From Macrostomum lignano (taxonomy: Eukaryota): 64,000 bases of DNA. The translations under genes were made by a program, and so were the position numbers. The stretch's first letter is position 1, and each line of letters begins with the position of its first letter. Below the pieces are notes generated by a model, which searched no databases, was not told where the DNA came from, and was given only the letters and a program-made list of their open reading frames with translations. This document shows positions 13,798-24,817 of the stretch, piece by piece. Location: assembly GCA_002269645.1 (NCBI GenBank), contig NIVC01000150.1, positions 248,001-312,000 of the forward strand, written 5' to 3'.

Positions 13798-14392
13798 ACT
13801 ACGTATCACGTAGATAGAGCAGGGTTTTGGAGGTGAGGTGGGTGTCAGAGCCAATGCAAATTCAACGCCTATCTAAATGCACTAGACCTCTTCTAATTGG
13901 TCCAGAGTCATTATGTGAGATATGCATGTACTCTCATGTAAATCCAATTATACATGTAATCAGTGTACATTTCCATTTGTGTACACTGTGTCGTACAGAA
14001 GCGAGGACCAGTAGTACGCATAATTAGCGCTCCGCCGTTGTTGTACGCAGAAGCGCGCCCAACCCCGCAGCATTGGTGTACGCAGAATTAACTGTCCATA
14101 TTAACTGTCCATATACCAAAATTGGCAGAATTGTAGCGCCCCCACCCACCCCATAACTGTCCATATTAACTGTCCATATACCAAAATTGGCAGAATTGTA
14201 GCGCGCCCACTCACCCCATAACTGTCCATATTTACTGTCCATATATACATCCAAAATTGGCAGAATTGTAGCGCCCACCCACCCCATAACTGTACGCGCA
14301 GAATTAGCATCCAAGAAAATATTCTGTGACCCCTACAAAATTGGCGGCCCCCGCGCGCGCGCATGATGAGTCAGCCGCTGTAAATCGCTGCT
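13798..14392. repeat. Left TIR (595 bp) containing ~60-bp internal tandem repeats
   Basis: Reverse complement of 24220-24817. I found one internal mismatch (in the GC run near 14350) plus one missing terminal ACT. Internal units ACTGTCCATAT...CCAAAATTGGCAGAATTGTAGCGC at ~14090-14330. Confidence 0.95.
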
Positions 14393-14677
14393 CTCCACCC
14401 CTCTGCCCTGCGCGGCTCGCTATAGCTACCTGCAGCAGGGTTACGCAACAACCCGGTCGAGACACAAGGCTAAATTTATAGCCAGACACGTCATCAAGGT
14501 CTAAAAACACTAACTTCTATGCATGAAATATTCTCGTTTAATAAGATGCCAGGTCAATTTTGTTCAGACAGCAAACTATAAATAAAGAAAATTCGGATTC
14601 TCAGCCGTTTTCTAAATTCACCAAGTTCAATTAAAAATCATGTGGAAAACGCAGTGTTTGACAAGCAATTTTGGTTA

Positions 14678-15585
14678 CCAAAGCATGAACTGCCAACAAC
14701 GTGGAGCAAGGATTTCAACACGCTTCCAACGCCAGTACCAAAAATAGGTACAAAATGTTCATTTTTCTGGAATCCTCGATAACGACAACTCCGTAAAAAG
14801 CTCGTTATCGTGTAATTAAAACAAAACTTATTGAGACTCTCGGGTATATAAGCACCAGCCCAGAGCACCAAGCCCCCGTACCTGCAAACTTTTCTCGGCT
14901 TCTCGGCAGTTTTCTAAGCTCAAATAACATCCCCACCACTCGTGTGGACAACGCAGTGTTTGACAAGAAATGAGCTGGATTTCCAGAGACTACCCTCTAT
15001 TATCGAACGAGGAAAAAGACGAATATAAGACGTTGAAAAAATCTGCTGACTGGTTGTGCATTTGCCACAGCAAACCGATTTCTGAGCGATTAGTCACCTT
15101 CAATGCCAAGGTCGAGGAAATTGATCAAGGTCCCTACGACAGCCAAGACTACGCAGCAGCCAGGATAAATGAGGAACTACGGGACAAAATGAGGTTCAAA
15201 GCTGATTTAGCACGAATGGAGAGATTACTGGCTCCGATACTAAGTGAGGAGCATCGCCAAAAAATACGTTTTCGGAACCATCAAGATCTGTATAATCCGT
15301 CGTGGGAGGAGCAACAAAAAATTTTGGAATTTTTGGCTGCCAAAGCACAAGAGAAACAGGCTGCCAAAGCTTGAACTACCATCAACTTGGAGCAAGGATT
15401 TCAACACGCCTCCAACGCCAGCACCCGAAAATAGGAACAAAAGGTTCATTTTTCTGGAATCCTCGACAACGACAACACCGTAAAAAGCTCGTTATCGTGT
15501 AATTAAAACAAAACTTATTGAGACTCTCGGGTATATAAGCACCAGCCCGGAGCATCTGCAAGCGCCCGTACCTGCAAATTTTTCT
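14678..15585 (+). repeat. ~220-bp direct repeats (14678-14895 and 15364-15585), each carrying GGGTATATAAGC
   Basis: Shared identical core CCGTAAAAAGCTCGTTATCGTGTAATTAAAACAAAACTTATTGAGACTCTCGGGTATATAAGCACCAGCCC. Each copy precedes an ORF (14970 and 15601). Confidence 0.9.
14970..15374 (+). CDS. Hypothetical protein of the element (134 aa)
   Basis: ATG-initiated ORF downstream of a TATATAAG box. No family recognised. Confidence 0.6.
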   Translation: MSWISRDYPLLSNEEKDEYKTLKKSADWLCICHSKPISERLVTFNAKVEEIDQGPYDSQDYAAARINEELRDKMRFKADLARMERLLAPILSEEHRQKIRFRNHQDLYNPSWEEQQKILEFLAAKAQEKQAAKA

Positions 15586-15600
15586 AAACAGACAAGAGAC

Positions 15601-16362
15601 ATGGAGACAGTGCAAGACTTCAACTGCGTCAAGCGAGAGCTGCTGGCACTCAAACCGCGAGGTCCGAGCTTCAACGGGGTTGAAACGTTTGACATTGAAT
15701 ATGACGAACAGGGACCTCTTTACTTGGCCAATGCGGTCCCTGTTTTGATTGTCAAAGGTGTGCGTACTGACAACGAAGGTCGCGAATTCATCATCATTGC
15801 ACAAAAACACATTGAGAGCTGCATACCCTACACTTTCAACACTGTGGCGGAGCACCTTTCCAGTGAAAGTCTAGCTCTTCTGGGCTACAACCCAGCGTTT
15901 GGAGGCGACAGTGCAGCGTTTGGGCTGGCTCACGACTTTAAAATGTACGACCAAAACGGACTGCTTGTAGAGGATTACAAAAACAAGAGCGGCTATTACA
16001 GGATTCTGTTTACTCTCGACACGGCCGCGATTCGAGACGCTGTTTTGACCGCAATGCCAAAAATTCAACAGCTACAGTTTGTCGAAGAAGCCAAACAGGC
16101 ATTCGACCGTTGCTATTGGACGCTACCTCCAAAAATCAAGGTAGGCTCCAAGAAAGTAAGCAAGAAAGCAAAGTAACCACCAAAGCTTGTCAAGGAGAAG
16201 CAGCCAAAGGTACCTAAAAATCAGGCCAGAAAGCGACAGCATCAATCGAAAGTACATGTAGTAGCAGCCAACGAATCAAAGAAGCGACCGAAAGCCCCCA
16301 AGAAGGATACAAAAGTAAAGAAAACTGCCGAAAAATCTACTTGCAGAACGTCGAGTGCGTGA
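15601..16362 (+). pseudogene. Hypothetical protein with a Lys-rich tail; premature TAA at 16174-16176
   Basis: 191-aa ORF. The same frame continues after the TAA as PPKLVKEKQPKVPK...KKRPKAPKKDTKVKK to a TGA at 16360-16362. Confidence 0.6.
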
Positions 16363-22940: not shown

Positions 22941-23390
22941 ATGAATAGTTTAGATATATTAGAACGTCTAATACTGCCTGTCCCTGTTCGAGTAACACCA
23001 GTTGACAGGATTCCGCAGCCTGTTTATCCTGCTGCATACGTGATTAACTTTGACACTGGCAATCTACCAGGCACTCACTGGGCTTTGATTTGTCTTCATG
23101 CCGATGAGAGCGTGACATTTTTTGACCCCTTGTGTAGTGATCCTGTGCCGGATTTATTAAAGTTGTGGATCGCAAAGTATGTCCCTGTGGAGGTGGCCAT
23201 GAACCGGCATCCTGTACAGCATCCGCTAAGTGTGACCTGCGGGGCTCATGTAATATTTGTGGCTGAAAAACACTTTCTGGAGTGTCTGCCGATTGAAAAA
23301 ATATTGCGCGACTGTTATAGCAAAAATCTTTATGAGAACGACTTGATGGTGCAGAATCACTGTCTACAAATAAAGCAGCATCATCCATAA
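22941..23390 (+). CDS. Adenain-like (Ulp1-fold) cysteine maturation protease
   Basis: Catalytic H (GTHW), D (FFDP), oxyanion Q (VQH) and C (TCGAH) are all present. Confidence 0.92.
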   Translation: MNSLDILERLILPVPVRVTPVDRIPQPVYPAAYVINFDTGNLPGTHWALICLHADESVTFFDPLCSDPVPDLLKLWIAKYVPVEVAMNRHPVQHPLSVTCGAHVIFVAEKHFLECLPIEKILRDCYSKNLYENDLMVQNHCLQIKQHHP

Positions 23391-23392
23391 AT

Positions 23393-24043
23393 ATGATTGG
23401 GCTGCCTATCAAAATGTATCAAACAATAGACCCCGACTCTTTAAAATTTGCCCCCAAAACGTCTGCAATTTTTGCTGGGGTGGCTCAAAGCGGCAAGACC
23501 ACACTTGTGAAAAACCTATTGAGGCAAGAATTTTTTCAAGATCCGAAGCCGATTCGCGTAGACTGGTTTGGCCACTATCCGGATCCTGAACTGTTTGAAT
23601 TGCCGTACCCTGTAAATTTTCGTTCGTGTACATTTGACCCTGAACAATATGTCCCTGAACCAAATATTCTGCTTGTCGTCGACGACCAAATGCATGCCAT
23701 GGAAAAGAGTGGCGCTTTTACAACTTTTTTCACGCGCAAAGTCTCCCACGTCGGGTTCCGACTTTGGTATCTTGTGCAAAACCTGTTTGCAAAGGGTAAG
23801 GAGCACCGAACTCAGTCGCTCAATTCGAACTACCTTGTTTTATTCCGCAATGTACGGGATGCCAGCACAGTGTCTCATATTGCAAGGCAGCTTGTCCCCA
23901 CTAATCCAAAAAGTTTTGTCAAAACGTATAAGGATGCTACTCGCGACCCCTACTTATACTTGATTGTAAACTGTTTGCAAAATGCTCCTGCTCGTTATTA
24001 TTCAAGCGTTTTGGGTCGTCACCCAATTGTGTATGCTAAATAA
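23393..24043 (+). CDS. A32/FtsK-like genome packaging ATPase
   Basis: Walker A GVAQSGKT, Walker B LLVVDD, TRKVSH, QNLF and RTQSLNSNYLVLFRN. May start at ATG 23414. Confidence 0.93.
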   Translation: MIGLPIKMYQTIDPDSLKFAPKTSAIFAGVAQSGKTTLVKNLLRQEFFQDPKPIRVDWFGHYPDPELFELPYPVNFRSCTFDPEQYVPEPNILLVVDDQMHAMEKSGAFTTFFTRKVSHVGFRLWYLVQNLFAKGKEHRTQSLNSNYLVLFRNVRDASTVSHIARQLVPTNPKSFVKTYKDATRDPYLYLIVNCLQNAPARYYSSVLGRHPIVYAK

Positions 24044-24219
24044 ATCGTATACGTATCAAAGCTCGGCCGGCTTTTTGTGTAAATATATACGCCTTTTGAA
24101 AACTTATTTGACTCTGGGAGAGGGGGTTGAGGATGACGTAATTGTCTCGGAGTGCAGTCGACGAGGGCTGAATTCTAGAGGGGTTGAAGTATGGATGGAG
24201 TGGATATAGCAGTGTTGAC

Positions 24220-24817
24220 AGCAGCGATTTACAGCGGCTGACTCATCATGCGCGCGCGCGGCGGCCGCCAATTTTGTAGGGGTCACAGAATATTTTCTTG
24301 GATGCTAATTCTGCGCGTACAGTTATGGGGTGGGTGGGCGCTACAATTCTGCCAATTTTGGATGTATATATGGACAGTAAATATGGACAGTTATGGGGTG
24401 AGTGGGCGCGCTACAATTCTGCCAATTTTGGTATATGGACAGTTAATATGGACAGTTATGGGGTGGGTGGGGGCGCTACAATTCTGCCAATTTTGGTATA
24501 TGGACAGTTAATATGGACAGTTAATTCTGCGTACACCAATGCTGCGGGGTTGGGCGCGCTTCTGCGTACAACAACGGCGGAGCGCTAATTATGCGTACTA
24601 CTGGTCCTCGCTTCTGTACGACACAGTGTACACAAATGGAAATGTACACTGATTACATGTATAATTGGATTTACATGAGAGTACATGCATATCTCACATA
24701 ATGACTCTGGACCAATTAGAAGAGGTCTAGTGCATTTAGATAGGCGTTGAATTTGCATTGGCTCTGACACCCACCTCACCTCCAAAACCCTGCTCTATCT
24801 ACGTGATACGTAGTAGT
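24220..24817. repeat. Right TIR (598 bp)
   Basis: Ends ...CTACGTGATACGTAGTAGT, followed by the TSD ATCTCT. Confidence 0.95.

What the first reader, a model, noticed from the sequence alone, without database searches (positions are those of the whole stretch)
13798..24817. Complete virion and integration module but no replication gene: satellite or deletion-derived Polinton
Seen: between intact TIRs there is no ORF or broken frame long enough for a pPolB (about 1000 aa), nor a helicase/primase, while integrase, mCP, MCP, protease, ATPase and core proteins are all present. Known: pPolB defines canonical Polintons, which are usually larger. Inference: either a polymerase-less lineage replicated in trans by a helper sharing its terminal origin, or a recent internal deletion.
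Basis: partly seen in the sequence, partly recalled or inferred. Interest (0 to 1): 0.75.

Follow-up and report, generated by a model that had tools for sequence, protein, structure and literature searches.

The report
Polymerase-less Polinton family with SSB, TBP
This is one decayed copy of a multi-copy family of virus-like Polinton transposons in an animal genome; the family appears to have spread without its own DNA polymerase while keeping capsid, integrase, DNA-binding and gene-switching genes, so it probably borrows a polymerase from a helper that has not been found.

Summary
The element is real: 13798-24817, 601-nt TIRs (99.5%), a 6-bp TSD, inserted in a Crypton-like recombinase gene. 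No pPolB, helicase or primase trace was found.

- The left arm is not a polymerase scar. It encodes a T7-gp2.5/giant-virus-type SSB fold (Z 10.3), a TBP-like protein and a GADD34/ICP34.5-like peptide.
- Integrase, MCP and mCP are broken in this copy.

Contigs from four independent studies show a roughly 3%-diverged, several-fold deeper form with the same genes. It joins TBP directly to the core genes, leaving no polymerase there. One run shows other flanks and the empty site. An assembly collapse or a one-off deletion is therefore unlikely.

Best reading: a mobile pPolB-less family complemented in trans by a related Polinton. No helper was seen, and a rare pPolB-bearing sister cannot be excluded. 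Mobile polB-less polintons are already reported in butterflies (bioRxiv 2025.02.07.637071), and this scan noted one on other DNA (e1-7276656). Verdict: new variant of a known kind, interest 0.5.

The parts
13792..13797 (+). left 6-bp target-site duplication (ATCTCT)
   Evidence: empty site in run X11
13798..14398 (+). left terminal inverted repeat; contains three ~65-nt internal repeats; its end has one terminal triplet fewer than the right end
14678..14895 (+). intergenic repeat 1 (91% identical to repeat 2), with a TATATAAG box upstream of ORF134
14970..15374 (+). ORF134, GADD34/ICP34.5/DP71L-like PP1-recruiting peptide (inferred)
   Evidence: A profile of 3 ORFs from other Polinton loci scores it at E 7e-9; best of 999 shuffles E 0.09. 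Those 3 ORFs hit Pfam PF10488 at E 3e-9 to 9e-4. ORF134 itself has no PF10488 hit.
15364..15585 (+). intergenic repeat 2, with a TATATAAG box upstream of the SSB gene
15601..16176 (+). T7 gp2.5 / Nucleocytoviricota-type OB-fold SSB (predicted); 191 aa here, 229-271 aa in 5 of 6 relatives
16377..16820 (+). TBP-like protein (first ATG at 16392)
16889..17668 (.). 780-nt segment found only in a minority of family copies; holds a 290-nt hairpin (16951-17240); bounded by 83%-identical direct repeats
17662..18090 (+). PZ-position core protein gene (named by position and a recalled motif)
18092..18745 (+). 217-aa conserved Polinton gene between PZ and integrase; function unknown
   Evidence: phmmer hits to ORFs of L045, L044, L005, L004
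18879..19958 (+). RVE integrase with chromodomain; in-frame stop at 19299 in this copy
19955..21148 (+). minor capsid protein (by homology and position); frame change in the 5' part
21193..21588 (+). PW-position basic core protein gene
21607..22890 (+). major capsid protein (by homology, size and position; fold not tested); in-frame stops at 21631 and 22639
   Evidence: 80% identical to the intact 427-aa P0002
22941..23390 (+). adenovirus-type cysteine protease
   Evidence: homolog in L052 hits Peptidase_C5
23393..24043 (+). A32/FtsK-type packaging ATPase
24214..24817 (-). right terminal inverted repeat
24818..24823 (+). right 6-bp target-site duplication
13254..13797 (-). 3' part of the interrupted Crypton-like tyrosine recombinase gene (target)
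   Evidence: PF00589 E 3e-12, DUF3504 E 2e-11
24824..25599 (-). 5' part of the interrupted recombinase gene
   Evidence: QRICH1 domain E 1e-8; empty-site contig joins both sides

Best explanation
The element is a member of a multi-copy, pPolB-less Polinton/Maverick family that works as a satellite of related Polintons. The family form is about 10.2 kb: TIR, PP1-regulator-like, SSB, TBP-like, PZ, ORF217, INT, mCP, PW, MCP, protease, ATPase, TIR. SHOWN: the layout, the absence of pPolB, a TSD-flanked insertion, and a deeper sister form with the same genes. INFERRED mechanism, four steps. (1) An excised or extrachromosomal linear copy is primed at its terminal triplet repeats by a pPolB and terminal protein made by another Polinton in the same cell. 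(2) Its own SSB coats the displaced strand, and the TIRs can close a panhandle. (3) Its TBP-like protein helps drive integrase and virion genes from a shared CTATAAATA box. (4) Integrase inserts new copies with a 6-bp TSD, and capsid, protease and ATPase could package them. The window copy itself is decayed and would need integrase and capsid in trans as well.
For: No polymerase trace, with working controls. Same left-arm genes at core depth in 4 of 4 runs. Direct joint 16888-17669 in 4 of 4 runs; for X2 record 18, 347+84 = 431 nt leaves no letters between the two sides. A 3,655-nt single contig across PZ-INT-mCP-PW in X4, 3.2% diverged and 5.9 times deeper than contigs on this copy's private segment; the ratio is 4-10 over the four runs. 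Three contigs with other flanks, and an empty site, in X11. Of the 18 listed differences that fall in ORFs, 11 are at third codon positions and 1 at a second position (binomial p=0.014), which suggests selection on proteins between two forms that both lack pPolB. Intact relatives of SSB (57-64%), TBP-like (68-69%) and MCP (76-78%) exist in other assemblies. CTATAAATA occurs 7 times in the element, all on the coding strand, against 0.40 expected in the whole window. PolB-less polintons that apparently stayed mobile are reported in Pieris mannii.
Against: No helper, pPolB or terminal protein was observed; no genome is held. One search showed only 24 of 317 loose ends, 40 of 464 differences and 32 of 2,106 pieces, and no piece spans the element. 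The direct joint accounts for only 0.54 and 0.59 of core depth in X1 and X4 (0.91 in X11, 1.21 in X2), which leaves room for a rare pPolB-bearing sister. Contig depth is not a copy number. The codon test rests on 18 sites picked by the tool, and the bias could be inherited from, or refreshed by recombination with, an autonomous parent. This copy has 3-4 stops where TIR divergence predicts 0.86, so defective copies may be moved passively. The models are weak: pLDDT 55 for SSB, and 38 for TBP, which was modelled on homolog P0013.
Confidence: 0.5

Rival explanations
1. An ordinary non-autonomous deletion derivative. A full-length parent in the same species supplies every protein, and the retained genes are passengers that have not yet decayed.
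For: Several breaks in this copy. Further internally deleted forms are seen in the runs (joints 15390-15802, 15823-16531, 16638-16790, 14500-14681). Part of the depth is unaccounted for at the TBP-PZ junction. This is the situation described for P. mannii, where polB-bearing near-identical sisters exist. TBP-like and PP1-like genes also occur in other Polinton loci; 2 of the 3 TBP-bearing loci hold a polymerase.
Against: The pPolB-less form is the commonest form at the TBP-PZ junction in 4 of 4 runs. Differences between two pPolB-less forms lean to third positions. No polymerase scar was found at any junction.
Confidence: 0.27
2. The helper is not a Polinton. The element is a virophage-like satellite copied by the replisome of a large DNA virus, or by host enzymes, using its giant-virus-type SSB.
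For: The SSB's closest predicted folds are proteins of Nucleocytoviricota: 43 of 43 named rows among the 50 shown, best E 2e-7, and ASFV CP312R at Z 10.3. PMC4889955 (passages) places T7-like SSBs in phages and Megavirales and says the SSBs of protein-primed systems are unrelated to them. No SSB of this type was found in 82 other Polinton loci.
Against: The element has no primase or helicase, which PLVs lacking pPolB normally carry (PMC11071308, PMC11296320 passages). The termini are short triplet repeats of the protein-priming kind, unequal in number at the two ends as slide-back priming would give (mechanism recalled). The 82 loci are distant and mostly short, and the SSB profile is narrow.
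Confidence: 0.1
3. The element moves by cut-and-paste with its own integrase, like a giant Ginger-type transposon, and gains copies through host gap repair. No polymerase is needed.
For: RVE integrase, TIRs and a 6-bp TSD are sufficient in principle (established for DDE transposons; recalled). An empty site was seen.
Against: It does not explain why SSB, capsid, protease and ATPase genes are kept. The empty site may be another copy of the target element rather than an excision.
Confidence: 0.07
4. A one-off deletion in this single copy, an assembly collapse, or a polymerase hidden by introns.
For: No long read or contig spans the element. The two 220-nt repeats could collapse in short-read graphs.
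Against: All 30 bins are covered in 4 of 4 independent runs. This copy's private segment is matched with 0-4 differences over 259-357 nt in 3 of 4 runs. The left arm is fully taken up by three recognisable genes, spacers and the 780-nt segment. No exon-sized pPolB match was found.
Confidence: 0.05

Closest known systems
Polintons/Mavericks (polintoviruses; adintoviruses of Starrett et al., PMC8502044; vertebrate Mavericks of Barreat and Katzourakis, PMC8097293)
   Same: TIRs, 6-bp TSD, RVE integrase with chromodomain, MCP, mCP, adenovirus-type protease, packaging ATPase, PZ- and PW-position genes, short terminal repeats.
   Different: No pPolB. At 11.0 kb it is below the 12.7-24.6 kb of intact vertebrate elements. 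All genes lie on one strand. The ends read 5'-ACT... rather than the common 5'-(AGT)2 or (AG)3. It carries a gp2.5-type SSB. Its MCP sits in a separate clade with P0001-P0005 (support 100/99).
polB-lacking polintons of Pieris mannii and another insect group (Pannagram preprint 10.1101/2025.02.07.637071, section 13 read)
   Same: TIR-flanked, keep other polinton genes, lack polB, appear to have stayed mobile; mechanism left open by the authors.
   Different: There the loss coincides with LINE or LTR cargo and polB-bearing sisters are known. Here there is no TE cargo, the pPolB-less form is the commonest form seen in four studies, and SSB, TBP-like and PP1-like genes are kept.
Polinton-like viruses and Tlr1 elements without pPolB (PMC11071308, PMC11296320 passages; VC40 in 10.64898/2026.06.19.733378 passage)
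   Same: Virion module without pPolB; VC40 members lack any detectable replication gene.
   Different: PLVs and Tlr1 mostly carry a primase-helicase or a pol-helicase fusion and often a tyrosine recombinase, and VC40 has NCLDV-like capsids. This element has Maverick-type virion genes, an RVE integrase and no helicase.
T7 gp2.5-like SSBs (T7 gp2.5, Enc34 SSB, ASFV CP312R, Nucleocytoviricota homologs)
   Same: Predicted fold of 15601-16176: Z 10.3, 7.9 and 7.8; rmsd 3.2-4.1 A over 124-155 residues.
   Different: Only 6-16% sequence identity. Relatives have a basic C-terminal tail rather than the acidic tail of gp2.5 (seen by eye; gp2.5 tail recalled). DNA binding is untested.

Membership tests
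Polinton/Maverick (canonical, autonomous) | [quoted passage not shown] | tested here: not met
   the control polymerases were identified by size, mutual homology and recalled motifs, and no library named them
Polinton/Maverick (canonical, autonomous) | retrovirus-like (RVE) integrase | tested here: met
   37-40% identical to locus ORFs with PF00665 and Chromo hits; broken by a stop in this copy
Polinton/Maverick (canonical, autonomous) | [quoted passage not shown] | tested here: met
Polinton/Maverick (canonical, autonomous) | packaging ATPase and adenovirus-type protease | tested here: met
Polinton/Maverick (canonical, autonomous) | double jelly-roll MCP and single jelly-roll mCP | tested here: inconclusive
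   homologous to ORFs at the capsid positions of 80 of 80 (MCP) and 38 of 80 (mCP) loci; no Pfam, PHROG or PDB sequence hit; folds not predicted
Non-autonomous or satellite Polinton family | several independent insertions of the same pPolB-less layout | tested here: inconclusive
   other flanks on 3 contigs in X11, a deeper sister form and a direct joint in 4 of 4 runs; no second complete copy or second TSD was read
Non-autonomous or satellite Polinton family | helper encoding pPolB with compatible termini | not testable with these tools
   no genome held; read laying shows at most 30 letters of loose ends
PLV / Tlr1-type element | alternative replicase (primase-SF3 helicase, SF1 helicase fusion, PolA) | tested here: not met
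   no frame over 230 codons in the left arm; only one Walker A motif, in the packaging ATPase
T7 gp2.5-like SSB | gp2.5-type OB fold | tested here: met
   top 4 of 48,161 chains, top 11 Foldseek rows though none at E<=0.001, 66 BFVD hits at E<=0.001; model pLDDT 55
T7 gp2.5-like SSB | binds single-stranded DNA | not testable with these tools
   needs an assay
TBP family | TBP repeat fold and profile match | tested here: met
   Pfam TBP E 0.0024 in 2 of 3 aligned proteins, below the curated cut-off and not in the window's own ORF; profile of 3 Polinton TBPs hits the window ORF at E 8e-6; top 4 fold matches are TBP-containing entries, Z 8.1-6.6, next 5.7, model pLDDT 38
GADD34/ICP34.5/DP71L PP1 regulators (PF10488) | RVxF-type motif followed by the conserved eIF2-alpha-recruiting helix | tested here: inconclusive
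   indirect only: ORF134 matches a profile of PF10488-positive Polinton ORFs at E 7e-9 but has no direct Pfam hit

The most novel reading that the evidence does not exclude
A long-lived satellite lineage of animal polintoviruses, spanning the whole clade marked by this MCP, SSB and TBP (relatives at 57-78% protein identity). It has dropped pPolB for good but keeps virion, integrase, a giant-virus-type SSB and its own TBP/TATA late-gene switch under selection. It is replicated by a helper: another Polinton, a separate polymerase-bearing segment with the same ends, or a large DNA virus. Such lineages would be invisible to surveys that require pPolB next to the integrase.
Probability: 0.2. Interest if true: 0.78.

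Novelty: new variant of a known kind. Interest (0 to 1): 0.5.

Why it matters
Polintons are defined, and usually found, by pPolB plus integrase. PMC8097293 and 10.1101/2024.01.15.575659 both required the two genes to co-occur (passages), so polymerase-less families are missed by design. How polB-less copies move was left open in the one report I found. A family that is the commonest form in several individuals, and keeps virion genes, SSB and TBP, gives a testable case of helper-satellite biology among animal polintoviruses and bears on whether pPolB and terminal protein act in trans. A T7/Nucleocytoviricota-type SSB in a Polinton did not turn up in the listing of my one search for it; I read no paper from that listing on this point beyond PMC4889955 and PMC11886824.

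Tried and rejected
Searches that gave nothing usable:
- No own genome is held, so copies could not be collected directly.
- IMG/VR scans found no relative: 0 of 8, 0 of 88 and 0 of 172 candidate stretches.
- The JGI metagenome scan (271 of 408 stretches related, best 80 kept) and the GTDB scan (2 of 107) gave only distant elements, at most 38% MCP identity. The gene order of close relatives is therefore unknown.
- ESM Atlas gave no usable hit for the SSB or TBP-like ORF.
- PDB sequence searches were blank or spurious.
- In the library-wide profile search, 3 of 7 hits (P0017-P0019) were repetitive proteins and were dropped. P0012 and P0015 were left out of the alignment used for folding because they look frameshifted or chimeric.
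- Rfam found nothing in the element at E<=1; no tRNA gene in the window; no recalled Pol III A/B box pattern in the 780-nt segment.
- No run is on record as RNA, so expression is not addressed. X11 is only guessed to be RNA and covers TIR and flanks.
- Kapitonov and Jurka 2006 is not held; that it describes non-autonomous Polintons is recalled, not checked.
- Six phrases for missing or trans-supplied polymerase had 0 occurrences in 10.1101/2023.08.22.554363.
- Supplements of the papers were not read and may list SSB, TBP or PP1-like genes in Polintons.

Ideas considered and rejected:
- An intron-split pPolB: no room and no exon match.
- ORF134 as a stand-alone terminal protein: it matches PP1-regulator-like ORFs instead. 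A terminal protein was not searched for by fold elsewhere in the element.
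Full report
1. The element. It runs from 13798 to 24817 (11,020 nt). The TIRs are 601-603 nt with 3 mismatches. A 6-bp TSD flanks it. It interrupts a DUF3504/phage-integrase (Crypton-like) gene on the minus strand. Two contigs of run X11 carry the empty site and continue exactly as window 24824-24842, which fixes the ends; they may come from another copy of the target element. The ends are short triplet repeats, with one triplet fewer on the left. The host is probably an animal: a class C GPCR exon, a SNAP ORF and a gypsy-type element lie in the window. 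No genome is held.

2. No polymerase. The longest stop-free frame in 14393-17700 is 230 codons. I took six polymerase-like ORFs from related metagenome loci. Three are distinct and full length (1,145-1,312 aa), mutually homologous and carry recalled PolB motifs, although no library named them. Their best tblastn hit inside the element is E=1.1, and a profile of three gives E>=0.18 on six frames read with X at stops. Five of 7 control ORFs from the same loci hit the element at E 3e-10 to 2e-68. No PolB motif is present, and the one Walker A motif belongs to the packaging ATPase. A divergent terminal-protein domain could escape these tests.

3. The left arm holds three genes, not a scar.
(a) SSB, 15601-16176. 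It has 6 relatives among 370 candidates at 57-64% identity. Its model (pLDDT 55) matches ASFV CP312R (Z 10.3, rmsd 3.7, 155 aligned), Enc34 SSB (7.9) and T7 gp2.5 (7.8) as the best of 48,161 chains. The same group fills the top 11 Foldseek rows, though none reaches E<=0.001. In BFVD, 66 hits reach E<=0.001, and all 43 named rows of the 50 shown are large DNA viruses (their placement in Nucleocytoviricota is from my knowledge). So a replication accessory gene is present.
(b) TBP-like, 16377-16820. It has 2 relatives among 7 candidates at 68-69%; both hit Pfam TBP weakly (best E 0.0024). A low-confidence model of relative P0013 (pLDDT 38) ranks four TBP-containing entries first (Z 8.1-6.6, next 5.7). 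A profile of three clear TBPs from other Polinton loci hits the window ORF at E 8e-6. CTATAAATA occurs 7 times in the element, always on the coding strand, against 0.40 expected in the whole window. Five of the 7 lie 49-142 nt before PZ, ORF217, INT, PW and MCP.
(c) ORF134. It matches (E 7e-9; best of 999 shuffles 0.09) ORFs of other Polinton loci that hit PF10488, the GADD34/ICP34.5-type PP1-binding region; it has no direct Pfam hit. Among 82 distant loci, TBP-like genes were found in 3 (two with a polymerase), PP1-like in 7, and this SSB in none; the TBP and PP1 counts include the loci that built the profiles.

4. This copy is decayed. There are in-frame stops in integrase (19299) and MCP (21631, 22639) and a frame change in the 5' part of mCP. 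The SSB frame ends earlier than in 5 of 6 relatives. TIR divergence predicts about 0.86 nonsense changes since insertion, fewer than the 3-4 seen. The copy may have been defective when it inserted, or its TIRs may have been homogenised.

5. It belongs to a family. Twenty of 24 listed runs, from 7 studies and one species label, hold part of the element; the best share of words is 0.48. I laid 4 runs from 4 studies on 12800-24213.
- All 30 bins are covered in each run. Median depth of the left arm is 0.86-1.11 of the core.
- A deeper form is about 3% diverged; for example, one 3,655-nt contig in X4 has 116 differences. It is 4-10 times deeper than contigs on this copy's private segment (depth is not a copy number).
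- In 4 of 4 runs the deeper form joins 16888 to 17669. In X2 record 18 the two sides add up to the whole contig, so nothing lies between TBP and PZ there.
- The 780 nt between those points, with a 290-nt hairpin (z -16.5), are real: 0-4 differences over 259-357 nt in 3 of 4 runs. They are a minority feature.
- At the right end, contigs run from the ATPase into the spacer before the TIR.
- In X11, three contigs carry other DNA before the terminus (agreement 0.61), which points to other insertion sites; their TSDs could not be read.
- Of the 18 listed differences inside ORFs, 11 are at third and 1 at second codon positions (p=0.014).
- The deeper contigs also differ from this copy by small length differences in INT and mCP; whether their frames are open cannot be read from the output.

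6. Limits. One search showed 24 of 317 loose ends, 40 of 464 differences, 15 of 16 joints and 32 of 2,106 pieces, and no piece spans the element. The direct joint accounts for 0.54, 1.21, 0.59 and 0.91 of core depth in X1, X2, X4 and X11, so a rare pPolB-bearing sister may exist. A more diverged second family touches PZ in X1 and X2 and MCP in X1 and is a candidate helper, but its genes are unseen. Around 17467, several short contigs sum to near core depth, which I cannot explain. Close relatives exist only as proteins without context.

7. Mechanism. Shown: layout, loss of pPolB, TSD-flanked insertion, a sister form. Inferred: priming at the terminal triplets by a pPolB and terminal protein from another Polinton, with the element's own SSB, TBP-driven late genes, integrase and possibly capsids doing the rest (0.5). 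The terminal protein is part of pPolB in polintons (PMC11071308, abstract and passages), so the helper must supply both. Rivals: a passive deletion derivative of a full-length parent (0.27); a large-DNA-virus or host replisome (0.1), suggested by the SSB type, which PMC4889955 ties to phages and Megavirales and not to protein-primed systems (passages); cut-and-paste only (0.07); a one-off deletion or artefact (0.05).

8. What is known. It fails the defining pPolB test for a canonical Polinton but works like one in integration and virion genes. PolB-less polintons that seem to have stayed mobile are described in the Pannagram preprint (section 13 read). A TBP-like gene is named in a figure legend of PMC8502044 (passage). 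Elements without detectable replication genes occur among PLVs (VC40; passage). Of PMC8097293 I read section 7 and passages. Of PMC11296320, 10.1101/2024.01.15.575659, PMC11071296, PMC6431247, PMC11886824 and 10.64898/2026.10.13.758929 I read passages only. Nine literature searches listed no paper whose title or abstract start describes a pPolB-less animal Polinton family with SSB and TBP; subscription papers, Repbase and supplements were not seen. Earlier notes of this scan on other genomes report a polymerase-less Maverick, TBP-bearing Polintons with a shared TATA box, and an SSB-bearing palindromic satellite; they are unchecked leads.

9. Verdict. A real element and a new variant of a known kind. 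The family-level evidence and the SSB/TBP cargo lift it above an ordinary broken copy. The missing helper and the published precedent keep interest at 0.5.

Noticed in passing
window 16951-17240: A 290-nt near-perfect hairpin (-195.7 kcal/mol, z -16.5) inside the minority 780-nt segment. No Rfam match and no recalled Pol III boxes. A variant lacking the hairpin part (joint 16851-17280) occurs in X1 and X11.
   Followed up: partly
window about 17437-17500: Four to nine short contigs per run sum to near core depth here while the neighbouring bin is shallow, so this short piece seems to recur elsewhere. It lies in a 60-codon minus-strand ORF (17299-17481) pointing away from PZ, where some Polintons start pPolB.
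   Followed up: partly
window 14969 (loose end in run X1) and protein P0015: One contig has other DNA directly before ORF134. By eye it reads like the end of the extra N-terminal part of P0015, which has no match in the window. The left arm may be a variable cassette array built on repeated promoters.
   Followed up: partly
window 17951-18026 and 21982: Loose ends show a more diverged second Polinton family in runs X1 and X2; a candidate helper.
   Followed up: no
window 13798-13812 and 24803-24817: The termini read 5'-ACT..., the reverse of the common vertebrate (AGT)2 motif, and differ by one triplet between the two ends.
   Followed up: partly
window 15390-16790: An internally deleted derivative with three joints (15390-15802, 15823-16531, 16638-16790) occurs at low depth: all three joints in X1 and X2, the last also in X4.
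   Followed up: no
window 13254-13797 and 24824-25599 (-): The target is a Crypton-like DUF3504 tyrosine recombinase gene, itself with a stop at 25042 and with diverged copies in the runs.
   Followed up: partly
window 27475-31260: A gypsy-type LTR retroelement in pieces: zinc knuckle, RNase H, integrase.
   Followed up: no
window 5896-6552 (-) and 44770-45240 (-): A 219-codon open frame of a SNAP protein and an exon of a class C GPCR, among many tandem-repeat arrays.
   Followed up: no
L003:1839-2369, L005:5328-5987, L048:3218-3724; L052:7704-8243, L026:1510-1917: Other Polinton loci carry clear TBP genes (3 loci) or PC4-type DNA-binding genes (2 loci).
   Followed up: partly
L081 (2350-3324): A Polinton capsid, integrase and protease block lies at the end of a scaffold filed as a bivalve gill symbiont genome; probably host DNA in a bacterial assembly.
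   Followed up: no
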